49,951 bases of DNA from a virus (taxonomy: Duplodnaviria > Heunggongvirae > Uroviricota > Caudoviricetes), in IMG/VR virus record IMGVR_UViG_3300021403_000003, positions 1 through 49,951 of that record, one strand, 5' to 3'. Positions 938 to 14,420 of the stretch are shown here, piece after piece. Positions within the stretch are counted from its first letter, which is position 1, and every line of letters starts with the position of its first letter. The position numbers and the translations under genes were made by a program. The notes under the pieces are model-generated. The model was not told the DNA's origin, did not search any database, and was given only the letters and a program-made list of their open reading frames with translations.

Positions 938-1164
938 TTATGACCAAATCATGGAAGATACCAAAAACCAACAAGGTGATTTCAATCACCTTGTTGGAGA
1001 CTTTACTTGGTGATTGGGGATTCATTATACTGGATCTTGAGATTGATTTGTTACTGAAAGGTGATCATTCCCCGAGTTTCAGAATTTGTTGGATTTTGAT
1101 GGAAATGGAGATGTTTGAATTTCGAATATACGACATAAGACAAAAGGAATATAACATCACATGA
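934..1164 (+). CDS. hypothetical protein
   Basis: 76 aa ORF overlapping both neighbours by 4 nt; ATG at 940 is an alternative start. Confidence 0.45.
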   Translation: MIMTKSWKIPKTNKVISITLLETLLGDWGFIILDLEIDLLLKGDHSPSFRICWILMEMEMFEFRIYDIRQKEYNIT

Positions 1165-1637
1165 GTCACTTGTATATCATCCGTGGTTTGCCTGGTAGTG
1201 GTAAGAGCACCCTGGCAAAGAAATTAGCTCAACGTTTGCCAGCTGAACACTGGGAAGCTGATATGTACTTCATCAAGGATGGGGTCTATCAGTTTAATGG
1301 GGCTAAGATCGGGGAGGCTCATGACTATTGCATCCGTAATGCCATTGATGCGATGTATAACAATCAGAAAATTGTCGTATCAAATACATTTACTCGTTGT
1401 ATTGAGATGACGGAATATTTAGAGACAGCTGAGAAATTGACAATCCCGATTACCGTGATAGAGTGTATCAATAATTATGGTAGCATTCACGGTGTTCCAG
1501 AAACTGTCATGGATCGTATGAAGCAACGTTGGCAGTCCAACGATGACATCAAAGCACCGATGAACTTATTCTTTCCTGATTTGAAGATCATCTATCAAAA
1601 TTCTGAGGAATATGCAGATGAGCTTGTTAAAGCCTGA
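1161..1637 (+). CDS. P-loop kinase (AAA_33 / polynucleotide-kinase-like)
   Basis: YIIRGLPGSGKSTLA Walker A, EADMYF, VVSNTF and HGVP motifs; directly upstream of the RNA ligase. Confidence 0.8.
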   Translation: MSHLYIIRGLPGSGKSTLAKKLAQRLPAEHWEADMYFIKDGVYQFNGAKIGEAHDYCIRNAIDAMYNNQKIVVSNTFTRCIEMTEYLETAEKLTIPITVIECINNYGSIHGVPETVMDRMKQRWQSNDDIKAPMNLFFPDLKIIYQNSEEYADELVKA

Positions 1638-2538
1638 AAACATCAAGGCTTTCGTTGAAGCGAACCCAAAGCTGGTGACTCGACGCGAGTCCACTCGTTA
1701 CCCTGGCTTGTATGTGTTGAAGTACACCAGGAAGGTGTTCTATGATGCGCTTTGGACAGAAGAACTCATGGAGATGAGAGGCTTGGTGTTGGATGTGGAT
1801 TACAACATTGTTTCCTATCCATTTACCAAAATTTTCAACCGTGGAGAAGCGGGAACAGATTTCCACCGCGATACTTGGGTAGATGCAGTTCGTAAAGTCA
1901 ATGGATTCATGGCTTGTGTCGCAAAATACAATGGTCGTAATATTGTTTCCACAACAGGTTCATTGGATTCTGATTTTGTGAAGATAGCTGAGAAGTGGAT
2001 TGGTCATCTTCAAATCATGCCAGAATTCACTTATATGTTTGAGATTTGTGATCCAACTGATCCTCACATTATCAAGGAAGATTCAGGTGCATATTTGATC
2101 GGAATGCGAAATTTGAGGACCCATCAATTGATGCGAGAAGATCAATTGGATGTTGAATGTCCAATTCTCAATCATAATTTGATGAACAACTTGATCAAAA
2201 GACCAAGATGGTATCGTTGTAACTTCTCAACCGCAGTGGATCTTGCTCATTGTGCAAAGCATGAAGGATTTGTTTGCCGTGATTATGTGAGTGGAAAAGA
2301 TCTGAAACTCAAGTCTCCTTATTACTTGACTACAAAGTTCTTGGCTCGGATGAGATATGAGAAACTGATTGAAAAATTTGCTGATGTGAAGAATCTTAAA
2401 CAGACAATAGATGAAGAGTTCTATGGGTTGGTTGATCACATTGCAAAACATTTTGATACGTTTCAACAGTTGGATGAGCAGAACCGAATCAGGTTGATTG
2501 AAAATTATTTCTTAATTCATGGGAGCCATCATGCTTAA
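1618..2538 (+). CDS. rnlA: T4 Rnl1-like RNA ligase
   Basis: LKYTRKVFYDALW, EMRGLVLD, SYPFTKIFN, nucleotidyltransferase motif I KVNG, FEI, EGFV, KLKSPYY. GAGG SD favours ATG 1618. Confidence 0.85.
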   Translation: MSLLKPENIKAFVEANPKLVTRRESTRYPGLYVLKYTRKVFYDALWTEELMEMRGLVLDVDYNIVSYPFTKIFNRGEAGTDFHRDTWVDAVRKVNGFMACVAKYNGRNIVSTTGSLDSDFVKIAEKWIGHLQIMPEFTYMFEICDPTDPHIIKEDSGAYLIGMRNLRTHQLMREDQLDVECPILNHNLMNNLIKRPRWYRCNFSTAVDLAHCAKHEGFVCRDYVSGKDLKLKSPYYLTTKFLARMRYEKLIEKFADVKNLKQTIDEEFYGLVDHIAKHFDTFQQLDEQNRIRLIENYFLIHGSHHA

Positions 2539-3274: not shown

Positions 3275-3847
3275 ATGACAATATTTTTCACATCTGATAA
3301 CCATTTCTCTCACAAGAACATCAAGAAGTTTTGTCCAACAACTCGCCACGGTGAGACTGTTGAACAAATGAACCGAATGATGATCACAAATTGGCAAAAT
3401 CAAGTTCAACCTGCTGATACTGTGTATTTGCTTGGTGATGTATTCTTTTGTAATGCAGAAGAAGCAATCAATATCATTAAGCAACTGCCAGGTCAGAAGC
3501 ATCTGATTTATGGTAATCACGACAAAGTGATCCGTAGTAATTTTGATTTGAGGTTGCATTTTGAGTCATTATCTGAATGGAAGGAAATTTGGATTGACAG
3601 CAAAAAATTGATTTTGCATCATTATCCAACCTATGAATGGAAGGATATGCATAAAGGAGCATACCATTTGTATGGTCACATCCATTCCAGGTATGGAGAG
3701 ATAGAACATCCTGGCATTCCAGGCCGTTGTATGGATGTTGGTATTGATAGCAGACCAAAAGGTGATATGACTTTGTGGACATGGGAAGAGATTCATCAAG
3801 TCTTGAAGAAAAGGGATATCAGGGGTCACCATGAGAAGGAAATTTGA
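3275..3847 (+). CDS. calcineurin-like metallophosphoesterase
   Basis: FTSDNHFSH, LLGDV, GNHD, HHYP, HLYGHIH motifs. Confidence 0.9.
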   Translation: MTIFFTSDNHFSHKNIKKFCPTTRHGETVEQMNRMMITNWQNQVQPADTVYLLGDVFFCNAEEAINIIKQLPGQKHLIYGNHDKVIRSNFDLRLHFESLSEWKEIWIDSKKLILHHYPTYEWKDMHKGAYHLYGHIHSRYGEIEHPGIPGRCMDVGIDSRPKGDMTLWTWEEIHQVLKKRDIRGHHEKEI

Positions 3848-4734: not shown

Positions 4735-4906
4735 ATACTCAAAGGAATTTTTGAGTTCTCTTGCTGAGAATTTACAACAAATAACGGAAGATTCGTTGGT
4801 GTCAGCTTGCGAGGTATACAACTTGGTCGCACAAGTTGATCGAGCAAGATTGATTTTACTTGATTATGGTCGCAAGTTGTCCACATTGAGGAATTCAATG
4901 TGCTAG
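4727..4906 (+). CDS. hypothetical protein, 59 aa (not in ORF track)
   Basis: MDEYSKEFLSSLAENLQQ...LRNSMC fills the gap; ends in TAG in frame with the next ATG. Confidence 0.55.
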   Translation: MDEYSKEFLSSLAENLQQITEDSLVSACEVYNLVAQVDRARLILLDYGRKLSTLRNSMC

Positions 4907-4915
4907 GGGTCGAAA

Positions 4916-5398
4916 ATGTCAGAGCCAAAGGTTACCCAGATCTATAAACTATTCAAGCTTTTGGAATCCGGTGAGCCAGTTCGAATTGATGAAATAGCAA
5001 AGCAGCTCGGTATCAAATACTGGAGCGTAGAGTGTTATGTTCATCAAATGCGTCACCTCAAACCAGTTGCTGCAGAATTAGAGCATCTCAAGGAAGGAAG
5101 GAAAGCGTACGCAATTAAATTACTGAATGCAAAGGATATTGATACTAGAACCTTCATGTATCGCAGTAATAATTCTGTGTATGTGAAACCAGAGTCAATA
5201 TCGAAGGTCAAAGTTGAACCCACCAAGCTTGAACCAAAAAAGGTTCATTCTGATAGATCAGGTATCTGGGTTGAAGGAGACGATGATCTTGCTGAACCAG
5301 TTGTTGAGAAATACAATGAAAAAGAGGTACTAGATACTATGGAGTCTCTTGGTATTGATAATGATCATTTCACTGGGAATTGGTCAAGTGAGATCTGA
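4916..5398 (+). CDS. hypothetical protein, possible N-terminal winged HTH
   Basis: LFKLLESGEPVRIDEIAKQLGIKYWSVECYVHQMR resembles an HTH; acidic tail. Confidence 0.5.
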   Translation: MSEPKVTQIYKLFKLLESGEPVRIDEIAKQLGIKYWSVECYVHQMRHLKPVAAELEHLKEGRKAYAIKLLNAKDIDTRTFMYRSNNSVYVKPESISKVKVEPTKLEPKKVHSDRSGIWVEGDDDLAEPVVEKYNEKEVLDTMESLGIDNDHFTGNWSSEI

Positions 5399-7568: not shown

Positions 7569-8009
7569 ATGATTCAGTTGAATAGAAAATCTTGGCATTT
7601 CTGGCTTGCATCCAAATTTGGTGACTATTGTTATAGTGAACCTGAATATCAAAACGTGTGTACATATACACGTTGCTTCCTTAAGGGATTGATTGTATTC
7701 ATAATTTCTACAATTTTGACTGTCTTTATGGGTGCAATATTCCTGGGATTGCCACTTTTTGCCTTGGGTTGGTTGATCGGTTACATGTTTGGATTTTTCT
7801 CACTATTTGATCCAAAAAGTCGATTGGCAGACACAGTCTTTTCTGGATTTTTGTTGTCCCTGATGTGGATTGTTTTTGGTATCATTTTTGGGATTGTGAA
7901 ATTTTGGAAAAATGGTAAGAAATTTGCTGCCGTTAAACAACCATCATTTCTGAAAGTTGCGTATAGGTCTTGGAAGGATAAATATTGTATCAAGGTTGAA
8001 TTTAAGTGA
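7569..8009 (+). CDS. hypothetical membrane protein
   Basis: Two long hydrophobic segments. Confidence 0.6.
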   Translation: MIQLNRKSWHFWLASKFGDYCYSEPEYQNVCTYTRCFLKGLIVFIISTILTVFMGAIFLGLPLFALGWLIGYMFGFFSLFDPKSRLADTVFSGFLLSLMWIVFGIIFGIVKFWKNGKKFAAVKQPSFLKVAYRSWKDKYCIKVEFK

Positions 8010-8299
8010 TTTCACTGTTTGATTTGATGAATGGATGTTTTGAAGGGTATGGTGCCTTCGGAGCTTGGTTAAACGTTATCAAGCTTCGAAAAGATAGAGA
8101 AATCAAGGGAATAGTTTGGCAATTGATGATAGGATGGTGGGCTTGGGGAATTTTCAACCTTTTCTATTACCCACATCTCGATCAGTGGTTTTCATTTAGT
8201 GCAGGTTGTGTGTTGGTTACAGGTAATGCAGCTTGGTTGATTACATGGCTAAAGATTCTGAAGATACGCGCACGTAGCTTAAATGTGAAGAGCGGCTGA
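8006..8299 (+). CDS. small three-helix membrane protein (PQ-loop/SemiSWEET-like, tentative)
   Basis: Three hydrophobic segments, about 97 aa. The last 32 nt overlap the tRNA-like gene. Confidence 0.5.
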   Translation: MISLFDLMNGCFEGYGAFGAWLNVIKLRKDREIKGIVWQLMIGWWAWGIFNLFYYPHLDQWFSFSAGCVLVTGNAAWLITWLKILKIRARSLNVKSG

Positions 8300-8341
8300 C
8301 TCTAAATCGGCGAGATGTGGGCACTCAATCCATCGTGCGCT
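8268..8341 (+). tRNA. amber-suppressor-like tRNA (anticodon CUA) with atypical T-loop
   Basis: Acceptor GCGCACG(8268-74)/CGTGCGC(8334-40); T8 A9; D-stem GCTT/GAGC; anticodon stem GCTGA/TCGGC with loop CT-CTA-AA; 5-nt variable loop; T-stem GTGGG/TCCAT with non-canonical loop CACTCAA; U73; no encoded CCA (TCA follows). Confidence 0.75.
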
Positions 8342-8351
8342 TCAATAGAGG

Positions 8352-8762
8352 GTGATCATGATAAACAAGTTGGTTGATAAATTTCTTTCCTGGCCATTGC
8401 CAAAAAGTGTTTGTTCTGACTTGTGCGTCAGTGATTCTAATTACAAGTTCCCAAGATATGGGACAAGTCTGCTTTCGGCTGAGGAAGCTAAACAGATGCT
8501 AGAATATGTATTACAGGAGAACAACGTGAGTGAAGTGAATTTGAAGAAGGGTGATCTGACTGACGAAGTTTGGAGAGAATATGATTTCTCAGGCCGAGTC
8601 TATCGTATTGAAGAGCCAGTGGAACTTTATTTTCGTCCAGGTGGTTCCACTCATCGAATCGTTGATGGTAAGGGAGTGGTTCACTGTGTTCCAGCTCCTG
8701 GTGTCAATGGTTGTGTTGTTCGTTGGAGAGTCAAACCTGGTAAAACTCATGTTCAGTTCTAA
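8352..8762 (+). CDS. hypothetical protein (possibly two fused small phage proteins)
   Basis: 136 aa ORF; internal AGGAG SD (8515-8519) before an in-frame GTG at 8526. Confidence 0.55.
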   Translation: MIMINKLVDKFLSWPLPKSVCSDLCVSDSNYKFPRYGTSLLSAEEAKQMLEYVLQENNVSEVNLKKGDLTDEVWREYDFSGRVYRIEEPVELYFRPGGSTHRIVDGKGVVHCVPAPGVNGCVVRWRVKPGKTHVQF

Positions 8763-8771
8763 GAGGTAATT

Positions 8772-9359
8772 ATGTGGTCTAAACTAAAAGCTTGGATAGT
8801 TGCTCATGCACCATTCAATTTGGCACCAGGAGCAATTGCTGCCGTGTTGTTCCTTATTTTCTTGATTCTTGTTGGTTTGTGGTTTGGTAAAGCACATGCT
8901 GCAACTGTGTTTGATGAAAAACCATATGTTCAATTTAATGTTGGTTCAACAGTGGTTCGTGGTGTTACACCAACATTTGGAATTGATTTGGTAGAACCAA
9001 CGAACCTTATCAAAGGTTCTGATATTGTTGTTGGGATGTTTGCTGTAGGTCGTTCTACTTGGAAGAACTGTCCAATTGATGGTAAAGGAAATCCTCAGTG
9101 TGAATCCAATTTGGTTTGGAGAGCAATTTTTGAAGATACAGTTTATGGAAATTCCTTTGGTGCTGTTCGTGCTGGAATTGGTATTTCTTACATGACCAAT
9201 TATCTTCCTTACAATGGCGGAAATGTTAATGCCAATCTTCAATTGGCTTATGAATTCTATAGAATCCCTATCACACTGACATATACTCATTTCTCATGCG
9301 GCGGATCTTGTAGTCCAAATGCTGGTAGAGATTTGTTGTTGTTGGGTTGGAGATTCTAA
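8772..9359 (+). CDS. outer-membrane beta-barrel, PagL (lipid A 3-O-deacylase)-like
   Basis: Signal/TM segment ending AHA-A; alternating strands; C-terminal YTHFSCGG..PNAGRDLLLLGWRF resembles the PagL H-x-S...PN.G motif; terminal Phe. Confidence 0.6.
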   Translation: MWSKLKAWIVAHAPFNLAPGAIAAVLFLIFLILVGLWFGKAHAATVFDEKPYVQFNVGSTVVRGVTPTFGIDLVEPTNLIKGSDIVVGMFAVGRSTWKNCPIDGKGNPQCESNLVWRAIFEDTVYGNSFGAVRAGIGISYMTNYLPYNGGNVNANLQLAYEFYRIPITLTYTHFSCGGSCSPNAGRDLLLLGWRF

Positions 9360-9605
9360 TTGTGGAAGTTCTTTGGACGCAAACCTGAAAAACCTTCTGG
9401 GAAATTTCAGTATCTTGGTCATTCTGTTCAAGCAAATAAGATTGATCTTTGGGTGAAATTTCCTGATGGTTCTACAGATTTGTTCCGTATTCCACTTGAA
9501 AAAGGTCTACTTGATCAATTTGAGATTGCGAAACAAGCAGAAAGACAAGGTATTAGAGTTATTGGTGAATTTATTGATGCCCAACTGCGGTTGGGAATTA
9601 TATAG
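9360..9605 (+). CDS. hypothetical protein
   Basis: 81 aa ORF abutting the previous stop; ends in TAG. Confidence 0.5.
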   Translation: MWKFFGRKPEKPSGKFQYLGHSVQANKIDLWVKFPDGSTDLFRIPLEKGLLDQFEIAKQAERQGIRVIGEFIDAQLRLGII

Positions 9606-9614
9606 GAGATTGAA

Positions 9615-10007
9615 ATGAAATTGTTACCATGGGTTACAGCTCTATTTTTGACGACAGCATTTGCTCAATCACAGAGTGATGAGCCACCAACAAGTCCGAT
9701 TCAAGCACAAATCTTGGGAAAAATTTTGTCAGGTAAAAAGATTGAATCAGATCCAGCACATAAAGTGCCAAATCAAGACGATCAACCTTTGACAGCTGTG
9801 ATTGTTACACAATGCAATCAAGTTGTTGCTGTATATTTCACAATGTCAAGTGGGAAATTGCTTCGTTTTGGAAAGGAAGCAGGAGTATCAGCCGAAACCC
9901 TTGTTGATTTGGCCTACAAGTCAGCTAAGTACAGTGAAAGAATTGAAGTTTCCTGTAATGGACTTGGTGAAACAGCCAGAGAACCACATTCCAGAAATGA
10001 CACATGA
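9615..10007 (+). CDS. secreted hypothetical protein
   Basis: Signal peptide MKLLPWVTALFLTTAFA; AGGAG SD; two Cys. Confidence 0.65.
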   Translation: MKLLPWVTALFLTTAFAQSQSDEPPTSPIQAQILGKILSGKKIESDPAHKVPNQDDQPLTAVIVTQCNQVVAVYFTMSSGKLLRFGKEAGVSAETLVDLAYKSAKYSERIEVSCNGLGETAREPHSRNDT

Positions 10008-10014
10008 GATTTAA

Positions 10015-10092
10015 ATGAAAGAAGATTACGAAGGTTTGTAGATTCCTGACACATATGTTCATTATGTTGCACGTGGTCCGCCATTCCCTTAA
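10015..10092 (+). other. candidate leader uORF with in-frame amber codon and RGPP motif
   Basis: ATG 10015 reads MKEDYEGL-[TAG 10039-41]-IPDTYVHYVARGPPFP-TAA, in the gap upstream of the Pth2-like gene. Confidence 0.4.
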
Positions 10093-10135
10093 ACTATTGA
10101 GCATCCCGTTCAAATCAAGTTTAAGGAGTCGAAAA

Positions 10136-10852
10136 ATGTTGGATTATAAGAAAGTTTGGTCTCACTTTCGTGTAGAAGGAACAGTGACACCATCACATGT
10201 TGTTGAGTTTTGTATCGTCAAGGCTGTATATGCATCTCGAGGAAATGAAAAGAAAGCCGAGAAGCTTCTCATTCAGTATCTATCAAAGGCTTTCACGCCC
10301 ATCACCCGTAAAAATAGGTTGGAAAATGGAGAGCATGAGTATTCATGCTTACAAAGAGCTATTCAAGGTATAAACAAATCATATGTTCTTGGAGTGCCAT
10401 CAATAGCACTCGAAAATTATGAGCTTCTTTATCATAACCTTCTTGATCATTTGACGTATCGTAAAGTTGCAGAATACAGTAAACGTAAGTACATGTATTT
10501 CTTTGTTCGTCAAGATATACCTAGAGAATATCAATTGGTTCAAACTGCTCATGTTGCATTGGTGAATGGTTGGCAAATCGCATTGGATAAAAGTATGGAT
10601 CCTGTTGATCCAAACAATATCTATTTCACTGTTGTTGGTGTACCTAATCTTGCTGCATTGAAGAAAGTAAGAGAAGATTTGCGTCATTTAGAAATTACTC
10701 ATAGTTTGTTTATAGAGCCTGATTTAGGAGATGAAGCAACATCTATTGCAACGTATCCTATCAAGGTTAATGAAAGAGGAAGACTTTTGACTTACAAGTT
10801 ATTGAGTTTTACTCTTACTGAGTTAGACCCTAAGATAGATCAAGTGGCCTAA
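10136..10852 (+). CDS. protein with C-terminal peptidyl-tRNA hydrolase type 2 (Pth2)-like domain
   Basis: KYMYFFVRQDI..EYQLVQTAHVA ... FTVVGVPNL..L ... FIEPDLGDEATSIATYP matches the Pth2 pattern (VRxDL, AQxxHA, EPD, TAIA). AAGGAG SD supports ATG 10136. Confidence 0.65.
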   Translation: MLDYKKVWSHFRVEGTVTPSHVVEFCIVKAVYASRGNEKKAEKLLIQYLSKAFTPITRKNRLENGEHEYSCLQRAIQGINKSYVLGVPSIALENYELLYHNLLDHLTYRKVAEYSKRKYMYFFVRQDIPREYQLVQTAHVALVNGWQIALDKSMDPVDPNNIYFTVVGVPNLAALKKVREDLRHLEITHSLFIEPDLGDEATSIATYPIKVNERGRLLTYKLLSFTLTELDPKIDQVA

Positions 10853-10855
10853 ATA
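10849..10855 (+). promoter_or_regulatory. T4-type late promoter (CTAAATA) at the 5' end of the tmRNA gene
   Basis: TAAATA variant of TATAAATA; the tmRNA base-pairing begins 2 nt downstream. Confidence 0.55.
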
Positions 10856-10856
10856 G

Positions 10857-11200
10857 GTCACGAAATGGTAGTAAACTGTTGATTAAAGGTGTTCAAGACG
10901 CGGGTGCAATTCCCGCCAGGTCCACCAACAGCACACTTGGCCAGAGGTCATGACTGGTCGTTTCTTGATGATGCCGAAAGGCTAACTGGAGTGTGCTTCT
11001 GATGGGCCTGACTAGCTTCGATTGGGCAAGTAATAACCCAATAGCTACCGGATTGGTGACTGCCCTAAGCAGCACAAAACGTTAAATGCAAACGATACTG
11101 CATTCGATGAAGATGAAGGCTTTGTAGAGCTCGCTCTCGCTGCCTGATTCTGAATCTGGGGTTTTGGTGGCTGTCCTTATCACCCAATCAGCCACCACTT
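10857..11200 (+). ncRNA. ssrA: circularly permuted (two-piece) tmRNA
   Basis: The 3' piece comes first: GAC, T-arm GCGGG-TGCAATT-CCCGC, CAGGTCC-A-CCA (ends 10927). The 5' piece starts GGGCCTG at 11004, giving a 7-bp acceptor stem with G3.U70. Long P2 helix between pieces: TGTTCAA/TTGGGCA, ATTA/TAAT, CTGTTG/CAATAG, GGTAG/CTACC, GTCAC/GTGAC. Tag ORF present. The 3' end is approximate (after hairpin 11166-11196). Confidence 0.92.
11088..11147 (+). other. tmRNA tag reading frame ANDTAFDEDEGFVELALAA
   Basis: Resume codon GCA preceded by TTAAAT; AND start and LAA end typical of proteobacterial ssrA tags. Confidence 0.9.
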
Positions 11201-11217
11201 ATATCATGAGGAAGTTA

Positions 11218-11445
11218 ATGGCTACAAGTGCTGATAAAGATCAATTTTCAATCATGATTGAAACAAGGGCCATCAATGATAAATGTAGTCATATTGATGC
11301 CATAATTTCTCATTGTGAGGAAACTGGGTTAGAAATTGAAGTAGTAAAATCTCTTATCAATATTCAACTAAAAAAGAAGATCGAAGCAGAAGCTCGTACC
11401 TTGAGGATGATCAAGGGAGGAAATGCTTCGAGGTTGCCAGTATGA
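11218..11445 (+). CDS. gp33: late promoter transcription coactivator gp33
   Basis: FSIMIE...IDAII.HCEE.GLEIE.VKSLI...LKKKIEAEA..L; GAGGA SD before ATG 11218; T4 gene 33-59-32 synteny. Confidence 0.85.
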   Translation: MATSADKDQFSIMIETRAINDKCSHIDAIISHCEETGLEIEVVKSLINIQLKKKIEAEARTLRMIKGGNASRLPV

Positions 11446-11783
11446 TTGAATTTGAACCAGAAAATCCTTTCAAAACTACATATGGCTTTGAAAGAAGACA
11501 AAATCCGAGGACAAGAGCAAATCTCAACGTTTATTTGGTCACAACTGATCAAAAAAAGAATGAAAGAAAGATAATCAAATTTCAGTCAATAAATATCAGT
11601 CGTTCTGGATTGCTGATTGATAGTGGTGATTTTCCATTCAGAAAGAACTCTTTTGTTGATTTGGCGTTTATGGCACCAATACAAGAAAATGTAAGTCGTT
11701 TGTATTACATGGATGCTTTTGTTCAACATACTGGCAATGGTAAGACAGGTTTCTCGATGACCAAGAAAGGTCCGAAGCCTTGA
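11442..11783 (+). CDS. PilZ-domain protein (putative c-di-GMP receptor)
   Basis: ERRQNPR (RxxxR) followed by INISRSG (D/N-x-S-x-x-G); 113 aa single domain. Confidence 0.75.
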   Translation: MIEFEPENPFKTTYGFERRQNPRTRANLNVYLVTTDQKKNERKIIKFQSINISRSGLLIDSGDFPFRKNSFVDLAFMAPIQENVSRLYYMDAFVQHTGNGKTGFSMTKKGPKP

Positions 11784-12406
11784 GAGAAGTTTCTACTCTT
11801 CAAGAAAAAGCAGGTGGATTTGTTGCTTGGAAATTATTCACAGCTGTAAGAATCCACTATATGAGTGATTCTTATGACTTCTTCAAGTATAATGGTGAAA
11901 CTAAAGCAGCAGCTTCTTGGGAAGTTTTCAAGAATCATCGAGACAAATACAGTTTTGTGAAACTTGGTAGGATGTATGTCAGGGAGGAAATGATCTATTT
12001 CCTTGGAATAAATTTTTATCATAAACCAAACCTTTGGATTCATGATTTGTTCTTTGATGAAGCTATCCAAATTTATAAATCATGGAAAGAACGACAAATA
12101 CAAAACAATCGATTGCAAGAACTTACAAAGCTTGTATCAAGTGGGTTTAAGGAACTGATTGCAATCCATAAAGAGGAGCACCCAAAACTTTTGGGAAGGA
12201 TGTTGGTGAATGATGTTCACCATGATATCATTTGTTTGGTTGATAAATCAGTGAAATTTACAGATGAATGGTTGAATGCATATCCAACTGATCCAATCGT
12301 TCATGGTACAGTTAACAGATTAAAGAAATATAGCAGATTTGTTCAGAACATTATACATTACGATACAACAGCATACGACAAGATAATTGAGGAGTATTAT
12401 AAATGA
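11780..12406 (+). CDS. gp59: helicase loader gp59
   Basis: LFTAVRIHY.SDSYDFFKYNG, RDKYSFVKL; synteny. Confidence 0.85.
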   Translation: MREVSTLQEKAGGFVAWKLFTAVRIHYMSDSYDFFKYNGETKAAASWEVFKNHRDKYSFVKLGRMYVREEMIYFLGINFYHKPNLWIHDLFFDEAIQIYKSWKERQIQNNRLQELTKLVSSGFKELIAIHKEEHPKLLGRMLVNDVHHDIICLVDKSVKFTDEWLNAYPTDPIVHGTVNRLKKYSRFVQNIIHYDTTAYDKIIEEYYK

Positions 12407-13377
12407 CAAGAGTATCACCAGCTAAGTCAAGACCAAGATCGTCTTTGTTTAATAGTGGAAGTAATGCAGCAGATGGTTATGCAGATGATCATTCAGTCGA
12501 AAATGATGTTTTGTTTGGTGATCAACGTATGTGGTCTGTTTCTGGTGATAGTTATTATGCTTGTGATAAAGCTGAAGATTCTTTGCCAGCAGGTCAGTAT
12601 CTACCTGTATACAGCGAACAAAGAGGTATCTATGTTGTCAAAAAGCAAGTGAATTTGGATGATTTGCTTGTCCTCCCTGATAACAAAACAACTTATGTAT
12701 TAGACGCAATTAATCATTTTTGGTCCAAGCAGGATAAATTCCGTCAACATGGATTCCTTTGGAAGCGTGGTATGCTTTTGTGGGGTCCTCCTGGTTCAGG
12801 AAAAACTAGCTGTATTCAACAATTGTCCAAACAAATTATCGACAAGGGTGGCATTTCTGTTTACTGTACTGTTCCTAACGTGACAGCTGAAGCACTCCGT
12901 ATTATTCGCCGCATTGAACCAACACGTCCAATTGTGGTGATGATTGAGGATATCGATGCTGTTATTTCACGTCATGGTGAACCTGATTTATTGGCATTAT
13001 TGGATGGTGAACTTCAGATTGACAATGTTGTGTATATTGCAACAACCAATTATCCAGAGGAATTAGATCCTCGTTTTGTTCAACGTCCATCTCGTTTTGA
13101 TGAAGTTATCTGTATTGATATGCCAAGCAAAGAAGCACGTAAGACTTACTTGGCTGCAAAGAATCCACGATTGATTGTTAATCCAGAAGAATTGGATCGT
13201 TGGGTTGAATTGACTGAAGGTTTCTCTATAGCAGCAATGAAGGAAGTTGTCGTTGCCGTTGAGTGTTTGGATCGTACAGTTGAATCGACAGTGGAACGTA
13301 TTAAAGAAGTGATGGCCAAGAGACCAACTTCTGAAGATGCACAAAATCCTTTCAAAAAGAAAGTTGGATTTAGCTGA
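12403..13377 (+). CDS. AAA+ ATPase
   Basis: RGMLLWGPPGSGKT (Walker A), VMIEDID (Walker B), LLDG, ATTNYPEELD...RPSRFD (second region of homology). Confidence 0.9.
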   Translation: MTRVSPAKSRPRSSLFNSGSNAADGYADDHSVENDVLFGDQRMWSVSGDSYYACDKAEDSLPAGQYLPVYSEQRGIYVVKKQVNLDDLLVLPDNKTTYVLDAINHFWSKQDKFRQHGFLWKRGMLLWGPPGSGKTSCIQQLSKQIIDKGGISVYCTVPNVTAEALRIIRRIEPTRPIVVMIEDIDAVISRHGEPDLLALLDGELQIDNVVYIATTNYPEELDPRFVQRPSRFDEVICIDMPSKEARKTYLAAKNPRLIVNPEELDRWVELTEGFSIAAMKEVVVAVECLDRTVESTVERIKEVMAKRPTSEDAQNPFKKKVGFS

Positions 13378-13472: not shown

Positions 13473-14420
13473 ATGAGCGATTTCGCAAAACTCCGTCAAA
13501 AATCTTCCATTCAAAATTTGACAACTGCACTGAATTCACAGAACAAATTCAGCCGTGATGAACGTTATTGGGAACCAACTGTTGACAAGGCTGGAAATGG
13601 CTTTGCTGAGATTCGTTTCCTTCCAACACCTCCACAAGATAATGCAGATGGTGATGCACCATTTGTCACAATGTTCAGTCATTCTTTCAAAGGACCAACA
13701 GGTCAGTGGTACATTGAAAATTCATTGACCACCATTGGTTTGGATGATCCTGTTTCTGAACTGAATAGCAAACTCTGGAATAGTGGAGTTGAAGCAAACC
13801 AAAACAAAGCACGTGATCAAAAACGTCGCCTCGGTTACATCAGTAACATTCTTGTTGTGAATGATCCAGGCAATCCTGCTAATAATGGAAAGGTGTTCTT
13901 GTTCCGTTATGGTAAGAAAGTCATGGATAAGATTAAGGACAAGAATGGAACTGGAAGTGAAGTTAAACCAGAGTTTCAAGATCCAGATGATATCAAATTC
14001 AATCCATATAACCCATGGGAAGGTGCCAATTTTAAATTGAATATTCGTCAGGTTGATGGTTTCCGTAACTATGACAAGTCTGAGTTCCGTACCCCAAGTC
14101 AACTTGCAAAGACTGATAAGGAAATTGAGGTAATTTGGCGTCAACAATACAGCCTGAAAGCTGAAATTGCATCTGATAAATTCAAGAGCTACGATGAATT
14201 GAAGAAGAAATTAGAACGTGTTTTGGGTCTCACTAGCACAGGCACTTCATCTTCTACATCAAGTGCTCGTAGAACTGCAGAAGAAGTCAGCCATGAAGAT
14301 TCTGATCGTGAAGAACCTTTGGCAGCTTCTGTTGCAGCTGAAGTAAATACTGCAACAAAATCAACTACGAGTTCAGATGACGATGAATTCGCAGATTTTG
14401 CAAAATTGGCAGATGCTTAA
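13473..14420 (+). CDS. gp32: single-stranded DNA-binding protein gp32
   Basis: DERYWEPTVDKAGNG.AEIRFLP, WYIENSLTTIG..DPV, VFLFRYGKK, GANFKL, NYDKSEF; acidic tail. Confidence 0.95.
   Translation: MSDFAKLRQKSSIQNLTTALNSQNKFSRDERYWEPTVDKAGNGFAEIRFLPTPPQDNADGDAPFVTMFSHSFKGPTGQWYIENSLTTIGLDDPVSELNSKLWNSGVEANQNKARDQKRRLGYISNILVVNDPGNPANNGKVFLFRYGKKVMDKIKDKNGTGSEVKPEFQDPDDIKFNPYNPWEGANFKLNIRQVDGFRNYDKSEFRTPSQLAKTDKEIEVIWRQQYSLKAEIASDKFKSYDELKKKLERVLGLTSTGTSSSTSSARRTAEEVSHEDSDREEPLAASVAAEVNTATKSTTSSDDDEFADFAKLADA

What the first reader, a model, noticed from the sequence alone, without database searches (positions are those of the whole stretch)
8268..11200. Candidate phage translation-rescue / stop-codon control system
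Within 3 kb lie a CUA tRNA, an amber/RGPP leader, a Pth2-like enzyme and a tmRNA, with RNA ligase, kinase and phosphoesterase genes 4-7 kb upstream. Together these could repair cut tRNAs, read through ambers, recycle peptidyl-tRNA and clear stalled ribosomes. That is a coherent counter to translation-targeting defences such as anticodon nucleases and mRNA-cleaving toxins. The individual parts are seen in sequence; their joint function is inference.
Basis: inference. Interest (0 to 1): 0.8.

Follow-up and report, generated by a model that had tools for sequence, protein, structure and literature searches.

The report
Stop-codon-gated switch beside phage tmRNA
A soil T4-like phage carries a UAG-reading tRNA, a tiny leader gene that reaches its ribosome-stalling Arg-Gly-Pro-Pro motif only if that UAG is read through, a tRNA-hydrolase-like gene behind the leader, and a two-piece tmRNA; these four parts recur together in dozens of phages and look like a natural sensor of stop-codon read-through, while the RNA-repair genes upstream are a separate module.

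Summary
They are a tRNA(CUA) at 8268-8341 (Rfam 37.7 bits, atypical T-loop, no CCA), a leader uORF at 10015-10092, a 238-aa protein with a Pth2-fold C-terminal domain (10136-10852), and a permuted tmRNA (10834-11204). A kinase, an Rnl1-type ligase and a phosphoesterase lie 4.4-7.1 kb upstream.

The four core parts are linked. Among 57 non-redundant loci encoding this protein family, 32 have a co-oriented tRNA(CUA), 29 a permuted tmRNA and 20 both. In 20 of 21 two-domain members a leader with in-frame TAG followed by xPP precedes the gene; this occurs at 0 of 968 control ORF starts. R-G-P-P is kept through synonymous codon changes. In all 17 loci folded, the leader's end pairs with the gene's Shine-Dalgarno sequence.

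I read it as an amber-read-through-gated arrest-peptide switch for the hydrolase-like gene, with tmRNA as a frequent companion.

The RNA-repair genes are not part of the conserved unit: two near-complete relatives with the module lack an Rnl1 ligase. The anti-defence role is untested. TAG is not recoded genome-wide.

This scan has found the same design before on other DNA. I found no publication describing it. The two-piece tmRNA upstream of gp33 is published for phage Melnitz.

The parts
8268..8341 (+). tRNA with anticodon CUA (reads UAG). Atypical: T-loop CACUCAA, G53.U61, discriminator U, no encoded CCA.
   Evidence: Rfam RF00005 at 37.7 bits. Missed by default ARAGORN. Aligns with canonical CUA tRNAs of relatives and shows a compensatory change in the acceptor stem. 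The cloverleaf is energetically feasible.
10015..10092 (+). Leader uORF of 25 codons plus stop, with one in-frame TAG (10039-10041) and R-G-P-P (10072-10083).
   Evidence: Sequence. Homologous leaders with 1-2 in-frame TAGs and RGPP occur in L004, L005, L006, L011, L014, L019, L037 and others. RGPP codons vary synonymously.
10087..10125 (+). Hairpin whose 5' arm (10087-10095, the last leader codon, the stop and 3 nt beyond) pairs with 10117-10125, which overlaps the Shine-Dalgarno AAGGAG (10122-10127) of the next gene.
   Evidence: Found in the centroid and MFE folds. An equivalent pairing of the leader end with the SD is predicted in all 17 loci folded.
10136..10852 (+). Two-domain protein of 238 aa. 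The N-terminal helical domain (1-114) has no recognised fold. The C-terminal domain (115-223) has the Pth2 (peptidyl-tRNA hydrolase 2) fold.
   Evidence: AlphaFold model with pLDDT 94.4. VIA Z 13.0 against 1wn2. Foldseek. 390 family representatives at E<=1e-3. Invariant V135, Q136, H139 and F192.
10834..11204 (+). Circularly permuted (two-piece) tmRNA gene. The acceptor piece ends in CCA at 10925-10927. The coding piece starts at 11004. The tag ORF is 11088-11147, 19 residues ending in LALAA.
   Evidence: RF04321 at 125.3 bits and RF01850 at 93.3 bits. nhmmer E 5e-74 against a profile of relatives' tmRNAs. ARAGORN finds it at a relaxed threshold.
1161..1637 (+). P-loop kinase (AAA_33, polynucleotide-kinase-like). 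Part of a separate RNA-repair module, not of the conserved unit.
   Evidence: Pfam PF13671 at 5.8e-10.
1612..2538 (+). Rnl1-type RNA ligase. Separate module.
   Evidence: Pfam PF09511 at 5.1e-10. Absent from near-complete relatives G001 and G004, which carry the module.
3275..3847 (+). Calcineurin-type metallophosphoesterase. Separate module.
   Evidence: Pfam PF12850 at 1.9e-06.
11218..11445 (+). gp33-like late-transcription coactivator (context marker; the tmRNA lies directly upstream of it).
   Evidence: Pfam PF16805 at 9.7e-17.

Best explanation
The core is a translational switch that reports whether UAG is being read through.

A ribosome starting the leader at 10015 meets UAG at codon 9. 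If release factor 1 wins, it terminates about 50 nt upstream of a hairpin that hides the Shine-Dalgarno sequence of the next gene, and that gene stays off. If the phage tRNA(CUA) decodes the UAG, the ribosome goes on to Arg-Gly-Pro-Pro, a motif shown elsewhere to arrest bacterial ribosomes robustly. Parked there, its footprint covers the 5' arm of the hairpin (10087-10095). That frees AAGGAG, and the 238-aa Pth2-fold protein is translated from 10136.

This protein probably cleaves an ester-linked group from the 3' end of a tRNA, either peptidyl-tRNA or N-blocked aminoacyl-tRNA. The two-piece tmRNA directly downstream, probably on the same transcript, would free ribosomes that ran through UAG stops to mRNA ends. 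Together they would clean up after phage-imposed amber suppression.

Shown: the parts, their conserved linkage, peptide-level conservation of the leader, and the predicted SD-masking hairpin. Inferred: charging and decoding by the tRNA, arrest at RGPP, the enzyme's substrate, co-transcription, and the clean-up purpose.
For: (1) Linkage. Of 57 non-redundant loci of the protein family, 32 have a co-oriented tRNA(CUA) within 4.5 kb. In about 20 of these it is the only tRNA. CUA makes up 33 of the 129 flanking tRNAs.

(2) Leader. An ATG, 1-2 in-frame TAGs and an xPP motif occur upstream of 20 of 21 two-domain members. The same pattern occurs at 0 of 968 other ORF starts in the same loci, once the three hits that belong to the same module are set aside. 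It occurs at no other gene of this genome.

(3) Peptide-level selection. R-G-P-P is invariant in 13 of 14 long leaders while using 3 Arg, 3 Gly and 3+3 Pro codons. The TAGs are always in frame with the ATG and with PP. No in-frame start follows the TAG.

(4) Hairpin. In all 17 loci folded, the MFE pairs the PP/stop region with the SD of the gene. The arm sequences differ between clades (CCUUAAACU/AGUUUAAGG; CCUCC/GGAG; CCUUAAUCUUGAG/CUCAAGAAUUAAGG). The hairpin begins 0-9 nt after the PP codons, inside a ribosome footprint.

(5) RGPP is a robust arrest core that EF-P does not relieve, and it is found upstream of genes of diverse function (PMC12992588, abstract).

(6) An independent second gating mode. 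In the cultured Acinetobacter phage ME3 the single-domain homologue has TAG at its own codon 3, with an annotated tRNA of anticodon CTA about 430 nt upstream.

(7) Fold. Pth2 by VIA Z 13.0. Q136, H139, D196 and T202 align with conserved Pth2 positions.

(8) tmRNA. It lies within 4.5 kb in 29 of 57 loci, co-oriented in all but one, and directly after the gene in every two-domain locus that has one. The published base rate is tmRNA in 2.3% of phage genomes (PMC9004378).

(9) Possible tuning. Within the '...PDT-TAG' sub-clade this window alone has TAT in place of the second TAG, and it alone has a weak-looking tRNA.
Against: Nothing is experimental. It is unknown whether the tRNA is made or charged, and with what. 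Its nearest typed tRNAs are only 68-77% identical and of mixed identity.

The window's tRNA has a non-canonical elbow and may be weak or dead.

The protein fails Pfam PF01981. The catalytic Lys of Pth2 appears to align with Tyr/Gln here, so the chemistry or substrate may differ.

CCUCC is itself an anti-SD, so in part of the family the Pro-Pro codons could be kept for RNA pairing. In the window clade, however, the PP codons lie outside the stem.

SD masking is only modestly stronger than at control genes by a crude pairing-probability measure (median 0.66 against 0.52, p=0.002).

TAG ends 21 of about 230 phage genes, and these show no sign of nearby back-up stops. Strong suppression should therefore cost the phage something.

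No promoter or terminator evidence settles co-transcription.
Confidence: 0.6

Rival explanations
1. One reading: the whole 10-kb block, including kinase, Rnl1 ligase and phosphoesterase, is one integrated counter-defence system against anticodon nucleases and mRNA-cleaving toxins.
For: All the genes are present and co-oriented. The order is kept in the close clade: L006, the P0004 contig and G002. The genome also holds 32 tRNAs and a GGQ RF-1-domain protein, so it invests heavily in translation upkeep. L008 has a small Metallophos_2 gene just after its Pth2-like gene.
Against: There is no Rnl1-family ligase in G001 (100% complete) or G004 (98% complete), both of which carry the module. There is none within 10 kb in L008. 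Synteny in the close clade is what common descent alone would give. No defence-related signal was tested or seen.
Confidence: 0.12
2. Negative-feedback homeostat. The Pth2-fold protein acts on the suppressor tRNA itself, deacylating or otherwise disabling aminoacyl- or peptidyl-tRNA(CUA). Read-through of the leader then limits further read-through, in the same spirit as RF2 autoregulation.
For: The tRNA and the enzyme form a closed loop with no other conserved TAG target in this genome. The extra N-terminal domain could give tRNA specificity. Two independent gating modes both tie enzyme level to suppression. Unchecked suppression should be costly, because 9% of phage genes end in TAG.
Against: Known Pth2 enzymes act on peptidyl-tRNA, not on aminoacyl-tRNA (established knowledge). 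The N-terminal domain has no recognisable tRNA-binding fold. Many single-domain members lack it. The tmRNA linkage fits clean-up better than throttling.
Confidence: 0.2
3. Decaying relic in this particular phage. The tRNA(CUA) no longer works, and the leader keeps the Pth2-like gene permanently off or leaky.
For: The tRNA scores 37.7 bits against 64-72 in relatives. It has lost the canonical T-loop, G53-C61 and the encoded CCA. One of the two TAGs of the sub-clade has been lost.
Against: All four tRNA stems are intact, with a compensatory 6-67 change relative to L004. The leader keeps ATG, TAG, RGPP and the hairpin. The 238-aa ORF is intact with every family-invariant residue. The tmRNA scores as well as those of relatives.
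Confidence: 0.12
4. The leader is an RNA sensor that is not translated past UAG. An example would be a T-box-like element whose UAG triplets pair with the CUA anticodon.
For: UAG triplets complementary to the anticodon lie in a structured 5' region upstream of a regulated gene.
Against: The TAGs are always in frame with an ATG that mostly has an SD, and with RGPP. RGPP is conserved as a peptide through synonymous changes. Leader length and sequence vary freely otherwise. Rfam finds no family there.
Confidence: 0.03
5. The phage reads TAG as a sense codon genome-wide (code-15-like recoding), and the tRNA serves that.
For: Phage-encoded CUA tRNAs are the hallmark of recoded phages (PMC10879173 and PMC11210395, abstracts).
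Against: Reading through TAG lengthens ORFs less than reading through TAA or TGA does. TAG ends 21 of about 230 genes. The large in-frame continuations checked are separate genes with their own start codons, two with TAGGAG serving as both stop and SD.
Confidence: 0.01

Closest known systems
RAPP/RGPP-type ribosome arrest peptides (ApdA, ApdP, ApcA; SecM RAG-P)
   Same: A small uORF with R-G-P-P near its C-terminus lies just upstream of a gene whose SD is masked by a hairpin that a stalled ribosome would open. RGPP is documented as a robust arrest core that EF-P does not relieve, and it is found upstream of genes of diverse function (PMC12992588; PMC10951233).
   Different: The known examples are monitoring substrates with signal or membrane segments, and translocation force releases their arrest. 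This leader has no hydrophobic segment. Access to the arrest site is gated by an in-frame UAG. The regulated gene is a tRNA-hydrolase-like enzyme, and the element is phage-borne.
prfB (RF2) autoregulation through an in-frame UGA
   Same: An in-frame stop codon early in a reading frame measures the balance between termination and an alternative decoding event, and sets expression accordingly (established knowledge).
   Different: There the alternative is a +1 frameshift and the product is the release factor itself. Here the alternative is decoding by a dedicated suppressor tRNA, and the output is a downstream gene opened by ribosome arrest.
Stop-codon-recoded phages with suppressor tRNAs (TAG read as Gln; crAss-like, Lak and others)
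   Same: A phage-encoded tRNA(CUA) overrides host UAG termination (PMC10879173; PMC11210395).
   Different: This genome keeps the standard code. The only conserved in-frame TAG target found is the leader.
Two-piece tmRNA of T4-like phage Melnitz and its relatives
   Same: A permuted ssrA gene lies directly upstream of the gp33-like transcription coactivator in a related T4-like phage group (PMC9004378). gp32 of Melnitz is about 53% identical to this phage's.
   Different: That paper does not mention a suppressor tRNA (0 occurrences of 'suppressor'), and Melnitz did not appear among the tblastn matches to the Pth2-like protein. It places a glutamine riboswitch in the 3' domain of ssrA, and Rfam finds none here. 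Here the tmRNA follows the amber-gated gene.
Pth2 (archaeal/eukaryotic peptidyl-tRNA hydrolase 2; PH1539, Bit1/PTRH2)
   Same: Same fold, and the conserved Gln-x-x-His and Asp...Thr positions are kept.
   Different: About 18-20% identity. Fails the Pfam threshold. The catalytic Lys is apparently replaced. There is an extra 114-residue helical N-terminal domain.
T4 Pnkp/Rnl1 tRNA repair against the PrrC anticodon nuclease
   Same: Kinase, phosphoesterase and Rnl1-type ligase genes lie 4.4-7.1 kb upstream.
   Different: Kinase and phosphatase are separate genes, and the phosphatase is of the calcineurin type. The trio is not linked to the tRNA(CUA) module outside the close clade.

Membership tests
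tRNA (Rfam RF00005), amber suppressor | Covariance-model score above the gathering threshold, and a cloverleaf | tested here: met
   37.7 bits against 29. Four stems form.
tRNA (Rfam RF00005), amber suppressor | Anticodon CUA in a 7-nt loop with U33 | tested here: met
   The loop is CU-CUA-AA. It is identical in 5 of 5 aligned relatives.
tRNA (Rfam RF00005), amber suppressor | Canonical T-loop and D-loop elbow (T54-Psi55-C56, G18G19, G53-C61) | tested here: not met
   The T-loop is CACUCAA, 53-61 is G.U, and the D-loop lacks GG. Relatives are canonical.
tRNA (Rfam RF00005), amber suppressor | Aminoacylation and decoding of UAG | not testable with these tools
   Identity could not be inferred. 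The nearest typed tRNAs are 68-77% identical and of mixed type.
Permuted tmRNA (Rfam RF04321 / RF01850) | Covariance-model score above the gathering threshold over the full model | tested here: met
   125.3 bits against 47, and 93.3 bits against 84.
Permuted tmRNA (Rfam RF04321 / RF01850) | Acceptor piece ending in CCA placed before the coding piece; G3.U70; tag ORF ending in a hydrophobic ...LAA | tested here: met
   Read from the sequence and the alignment. The tag given by ARAGORN ends in LALAA.
Permuted tmRNA (Rfam RF04321 / RF01850) | SmpB partner | tested here: not met
   No PF01668 match in the 100%-complete phage genome. Host SmpB would be needed.
PTH2 (Pfam PF01981) | Pfam score above the gathering threshold | tested here: not met
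   No hit for the window protein. 14 of 82 relatives hit weakly, best 4e-4. The PDB profile search gave E 0.012.
PTH2 (Pfam PF01981) | Pth2 alpha/beta fold | tested here: met
   VIA Z 13.0, rmsd 2.1, 108 residues. Foldseek TM by hit 0.76-0.83.
PTH2 (Pfam PF01981) | Catalytic Lys and Asp of Pth2 | tested here: inconclusive
   The Asp (D196) and the Gln/His motif are conserved. The Lys position aligns with Y132/Q133 in the HMM alignment. No structural superposition of side chains was made.
RAPP/RGPP arrest peptides | R-(A/G)-P-P near the C-terminus of a small ORF upstream of the regulated gene | tested here: met
   RGPP lies 2 codons before the stop. It is conserved in 13 of 14 long leaders.
RAPP/RGPP arrest peptides | SD of the downstream gene masked by a structure that a stalled ribosome would open | tested here: met
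   Predicted in 17 of 17 loci. This is a prediction only.
RAPP/RGPP arrest peptides | Experimentally observed elongation arrest | not testable with these tools
   Needs toeprinting or a reporter assay.
RAPP/RGPP arrest peptides | N-terminal signal or membrane segment (monitoring substrate of Sec/YidC) | tested here: not met
   The leader is 25 residues long with no hydrophobic stretch.
Stop-codon-recoded phage (TAG as sense) | Many genes interrupted by in-frame TAG | tested here: not met
Pnkp/Rnl1-type RNA repair | Kinase, phosphoesterase and Rnl1 ligase domains present | tested here: met
   Pfam hits.
Pnkp/Rnl1-type RNA repair | Conserved linkage to the tRNA(CUA) module | tested here: not met
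   Absent from G001 and G004 and from the flanks of L008.

The most novel reading that the evidence does not exclude
Phages with the standard genetic code carry a self-contained read-through circuit. A dedicated suppressor tRNA is sensed by an amber-gated arrest peptide, or by an amber at codon 3 of the gene itself. That turns on a specialised tRNA-ester hydrolase and is coupled to a phage tmRNA. The phage would thereby deliberately impose UAG read-through on the infected cell, for example to corrupt host proteins or evade a translation-targeting defence, while protecting ribosome and tRNA pools. This would be a new class of regulatory logic, in which decoding capacity is sensed through a stop codon placed ahead of an arrest motif. 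It would also give a first concrete purpose to the long-unexplained suppressor tRNAs of non-recoded phages.
Probability: 0.3. Interest if true: 0.85.

Novelty: new variant of a known kind. Interest (0 to 1): 0.7.

Why it matters
Suppressor tRNAs are annotated in many phages that use the standard code, usually with the remark that no target is known (for example PMC9022506). Here the target is visible: a conserved leader that can only be read to its arrest motif through UAG, in front of a tRNA-hydrolase-like gene.

If confirmed, this would be a natural switch that senses stop-codon read-through. It would extend RGPP arrest peptides beyond protein-localisation control into phage biology. It would also link three translation quality-control elements (suppressor tRNA, Pth2-fold enzyme, tmRNA) into one unit.

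It is directly testable with reporters and toeprinting. A cultured relative, Acinetobacter phage ME3, carries the simpler form. The parts could also serve as orthogonal read-through sensors in synthetic biology.

Tried and rejected
- Genome-wide TAG recoding: rejected.
- Other TAG...PP leaders in this genome: none. Ten 'ATG-few codons-TAG-gene' candidates look like noise and were not pursued.
- Back-up stops after TAG-ending genes: no enrichment (median extension 17 codons against 9-14, p=0.18).
- Amino-acid identity of the tRNA(CUA): nearest-neighbour comparison with 130 typed tRNAs gave no consistent answer. The TAT-for-TAG replacement in the window is a one-base change and says little.
- N-terminal domain: no convincing fold match. 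VIA Z was below 5. The best Atlas TM-scores were 0.33-0.46 to unrelated helical proteins, one of them an aaRS anticodon-binding domain at 0.40. No inference drawn.
- Close relatives in IMG/VR by single-sequence patterns: none. The profile search succeeded.
- blastn of the region against cultured phages: only a 43-nt tmRNA-like match.
- Sigma-70 promoter and terminator scan of 7900-11500: nothing informative on the + strand. The T4 late-promoter motif TATAAATA occurs once in the window, which is not enriched. I did not verify the other first-reader note that a late promoter drives the tmRNA.
- RNA evidence: no RNA holder listed. The only run holding the stretch is a soil metagenome that may be its source.
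- SD-masking pairing probability against control genes: only modestly higher, partly because my fixed SD window misses long spacers.
- Literature: searches on suppressor tRNA + phage + Pth + tmRNA, on amber + uORF, and on RAPP/RGPP found no description of this circuit.

Full report
SETTING

The window is the first 49,951 bp of a 176,865-bp virus record with 39.5% G+C. CheckV rates it 100% complete, and it comes from a soil metagenome. It is a T4-like myophage:
- gp33-like coactivator at 11218-11445
- gp59-like loader at 11780-12406
- clamp-loader AAA protein at 12403-13377
- gp32 at 13473-14420

Its gp32 is about 53% identical to those of Stenotrophomonas DLP_6, Sinorhizobium phiM12, Methylophilales phage Melnitz, Pelagibacter HTVC008M and cyanomyophages. 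A cluster of 32 ordinary tRNA genes lies at 158.6-172.3 kb.

THE OBSERVATION

(a) tRNA. Rfam finds a tRNA at 8268-8341 (37.7 bits, gathering score 29). The anticodon loop is CU-CUA-AA. Default ARAGORN does not call it. Its T-loop (CACUCAA), G53.U61 pair and D-loop are non-canonical, and CCA is not encoded. All stems are intact, and the cloverleaf is within 1 kcal/mol of the MFE.

(b) Leader. The gap before the next gene holds a uORF at 10015-10092. It reads M-K-E-D-Y-E-G-L, then TAG, then I-P-D-T-Y-V-H-Y-V-A-R-G-P-P-F-P, then TAA. No in-frame start codon follows the TAG.

(c) Pth2-like protein. The ORF at 10136-10852 (238 aa) has no Pfam or PHROG hit. A model built on 82 homologues has pLDDT 94.4. 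Residues 115-223 are a Pth2 fold: VIA Z 13.0 with rmsd 2.1 Å over 108 residues against P. horikoshii PH1539, and Foldseek probability 1.0 against archaeal Pth2 and human Bit1. Residues 1-114 form a helical domain with no convincing match.

(d) tmRNA. A circularly permuted tmRNA spans 10834-11204 (RF04321 125.3 bits; RF01850 93.3 bits). The CCA-ending acceptor piece comes first, G3.U70 is present, and the 19-residue tag ends in LALAA.

(e) Upstream genes. An AAA_33 kinase (1161-1637), an Rnl1-type ligase (1612-2538) and a metallophosphoesterase (3275-3847) lie upstream.

IS TAG RECODED?

No. Reading through TAG lengthens ORFs less than reading through TAA or TGA does. A crude gene call gives 113 TGA, 96 TAA and 21 TAG stops. 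The large in-frame continuations after TAG that I checked are separate genes. At two of them, TAGGAG serves as both stop and Shine-Dalgarno.

RELATIVES

The 238-aa protein belongs to a large unnamed family: 390 representatives at E<=1e-3 in a library clustered at 50% identity. I fetched the contigs of four homologues with 68, 52, 45 and 33% identity.
- All four have a canonical tRNA(CUA) upstream, scoring 64-72 bits.
- The three closest have a permuted tmRNA directly after the gene.
- All four have a homologous leader.

In the three closest the leader has two in-frame TAGs followed by ...A-R-G-P-P. In the 33% relative, which sits in a quite different neighbourhood, the leader is M-R-TAG-L-K-P-P-stop.

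A profile scan of IMG/VR gave 80 more loci. After clustering the proteins at 90% identity there are 57 loci:
- 32 have a tRNA(CUA) within 4.5 kb, always co-oriented and usually 0.2-2.7 kb upstream.
- 29 have a permuted tmRNA (nhmmer E<1e-10), 28 of them co-oriented.
- 20 have both.
- 16 have neither, and these are mostly 105-110-aa single-domain forms.

CUA accounts for 33 of the 129 flanking tRNAs. In about 20 loci it is the only tRNA.

THE LEADER IS TRANSLATED AND IS SPECIFIC TO THIS GENE

Among 21 two-domain representatives, 20 have an ATG-started uORF with 1-2 in-frame TAGs followed by xPP. The exception is cut off by its contig end.

The same pattern was found upstream of 3 of 971 other ORF starts in these loci. 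All three belong to the same module: one is the gene itself in a duplicate locus, and two precede the gene just upstream of a single-domain homologue, one of these with R-A-P-P. The true background is therefore 0 of 968. No other gene of this genome has such a leader.

There are two leader types:
- A long type, TAG followed 4-7 codons later by (Y/I/A)-R-G-P-P and then 2-15 more codons.
- A short type, M-(R/N)-TAG, then 2-5 codons, then P-P-stop.

In 14 long leaders R-G-P-P is invariant in 13 (one has R-D-P-P). It is written with CGT/CGA/AGA, GGT/GGA/GGG, CCT/CCG/CCA and CCC/CCT/CCA. That is the signature of selection on the peptide.

RGPP is documented as one of the two most robust RAPP-like arrest cores. 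EF-P does not relieve it, and it occurs upstream of genes of diverse function (PMC12992588). The RAPP mechanism has been solved by cryo-EM (PMC10951233).

THE HAIRPIN

In the window, 10087-10095 (the last leader codon, the stop and three further bases) is perfectly complementary to 10117-10125. That arm overlaps the AAGGAG at 10122-10127, which lies 8 nt before the ATG at 10136.

In all 17 loci folded, the MFE structure pairs the PP/stop region of the leader with the SD of the gene. The arm sequences differ between clades. The 5' arm begins 0-9 nt after the PP codons, so a ribosome arrested with Pro codons in its P and A sites would cover it.

A cruder test, the mean pairing probability of positions -14 to -5, gives a median of 0.66 against 0.52 for 283 control genes with an SD (p=0.002). 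This is modest support only. One caveat applies to part of the family: there the anti-SD is the CCUCC of the Pro-Pro codons themselves, so RNA and peptide constraints overlap. In the window clade they do not.

A SECOND, INDEPENDENT GATING MODE

In the cultured Acinetobacter phage vB_AbaM_ME3, the record annotates a tRNA with anticodon CTA about 430 nt upstream of a single-domain homologue. That reading frame starts M-T-TAG. The annotators therefore started the CDS at a later GTG. Both designs make the enzyme depend on amber read-through.

MECHANISM

I read the core as a switch.
- When RF1 terminates at the leader's UAG, the SD stays masked.
- When the tRNA(CUA) decodes it, the ribosome reaches RGPP, stalls and opens the hairpin.
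- The Pth2-fold protein is then made.

The tmRNA follows with no predicted terminator between, so co-transcription is plausible but not shown. Suppressor tRNAs drive ribosomes through stops to mRNA ends, where tmRNA acts, and peptidyl-tRNA drop-off needs a hydrolase (established knowledge). A clean-up role is therefore the simplest reading.

Within the '...P-D-T-TAG' sub-clade only this window has TAT in place of the second TAG. Only this window has a weak-looking tRNA. This fits a threshold tuned to the tRNA, but it is a single case.

WHAT REMAINS OPEN

- The tRNA's charging identity is unknown.
- The enzyme fails the Pfam PTH2 threshold. It keeps the Gln-x-x-His and Asp...Thr positions, but the Pth2 catalytic Lys seems to align with Tyr/Gln.
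- A negative-feedback role, with the enzyme acting on the suppressor tRNA itself, fits the closed loop equally well.
- TAG-ending phage genes show no back-up stops, so strong suppression should cost the phage.

The kinase/ligase/phosphoesterase trio is real and looks like a split Pnkp/Rnl1-type RNA-repair set. It travels with the module only in the close, collinear clade. Two relatives that carry the module and are 98-100% complete have no Rnl1-family ligase, and L008 has none within 10 kb.

The tmRNA can also stand alone. Melnitz has a two-piece tmRNA at the same place upstream of gp33 (PMC9004378). Melnitz was not among the tblastn matches to the Pth2-like protein, and that paper does not mention a suppressor tRNA.

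So the tRNA(CUA), leader and Pth2-like gene form the obligate core. The tmRNA is a frequent companion. RNA repair is a neighbour. The genome does invest further in rescue: a 129-aa GGQ (RF-1 domain) protein lies at 166,703-167,092. No SmpB is encoded.

PRIOR FINDINGS AND LITERATURE

After I had reached this reading, the scan's own index showed that other agents had described the same design in other genomes. These include an RGPP leader in a lake-water phage and TAG-gated Pth2-like genes in jumbo phages and in Acidobacteria. A later check priced the bold reading of one of them at 20/100 because nothing is experimental.

My literature searches found RGPP arrest peptides, recoded phages and the Melnitz tmRNA. 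They found no description of an amber-gated arrest leader or of the tRNA(CUA)-Pth2-tmRNA linkage.

VERDICT

- Observation: confirmed.
- Interpretation: partly supported.
- Best reading: an amber-read-through-gated arrest-peptide switch for a Pth2-fold enzyme, with a tmRNA companion.
- Novelty: a new variant built from known kinds of parts.
- Status: well supported by comparative data and untested at the bench.

Noticed in passing
G000 166703-167092 (= L002:8703-9092), outside the window: A 129-aa ORF with a GGQ motif matches Pfam RF-1 (65.8 bits). It lies at the edge of the tRNA cluster and could be a mini release factor or ArfB-like rescue factor. Similar genes occur in 2 of 5 relatives' records.
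   Followed up: partly
window 11442-11783: A PilZ-domain protein (PF07238, 1.4e-05) sits between the gp33-like and gp59-like genes. The homologous slot is also filled in relatives.
   Followed up: no
window 8772-9359: A 195-aa protein with a weak PagL (lipid A deacylase) match lies between the tRNA(CUA) and the leader. It is conserved at the same place in L004 and L005.
   Followed up: no
L004:6852-7931; L005:4040-5125; L006:11593-12639: Relatives carry an IMPDH/FMN_dh-like gene between the tmRNA and gp33. The window lacks it, so its tmRNA abuts gp33.
   Followed up: no
L037:3773-3900: In this relative the amber/RGPP leader has no stop of its own and runs in frame into the Pth2-like gene. Read-through could therefore also give an N-terminally extended protein.
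   Followed up: no
L062:4831-4902: A tRNA with anticodon UCA (a UGA reader, called 'SeC' by ARAGORN) lies just after the Pth2-like gene. The locus also has the CUA tRNA upstream.
   Followed up: no
L035:about 3540-3590; L061:about 3540-3590: In single-domain loci a TAG...KPP or TAG...RAPP leader precedes the gene immediately upstream of the Pth2-like gene. The leader therefore gates a two-gene unit there.
   Followed up: partly
window 9603-9617; G000 114543-114560: TAG stop codons double as the first bases of a TAGGAG Shine-Dalgarno for the next gene, which happens to be in frame. This mimics read-through candidates.
   Followed up: yes
window 4895-4918: Upstream of the ORF at 4916-5398, a GAGGA-ATG-TGC-TAG sequence lies in frame with the gene. 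It is a weak candidate for another early-TAG start and is probably chance.
   Followed up: no
P0002: The exact 238-aa protein is on record on two contigs, the longer of 267,524 bp, which is larger than this 176,865-bp record. This may be a concatemeric or alternative assembly.
   Followed up: no
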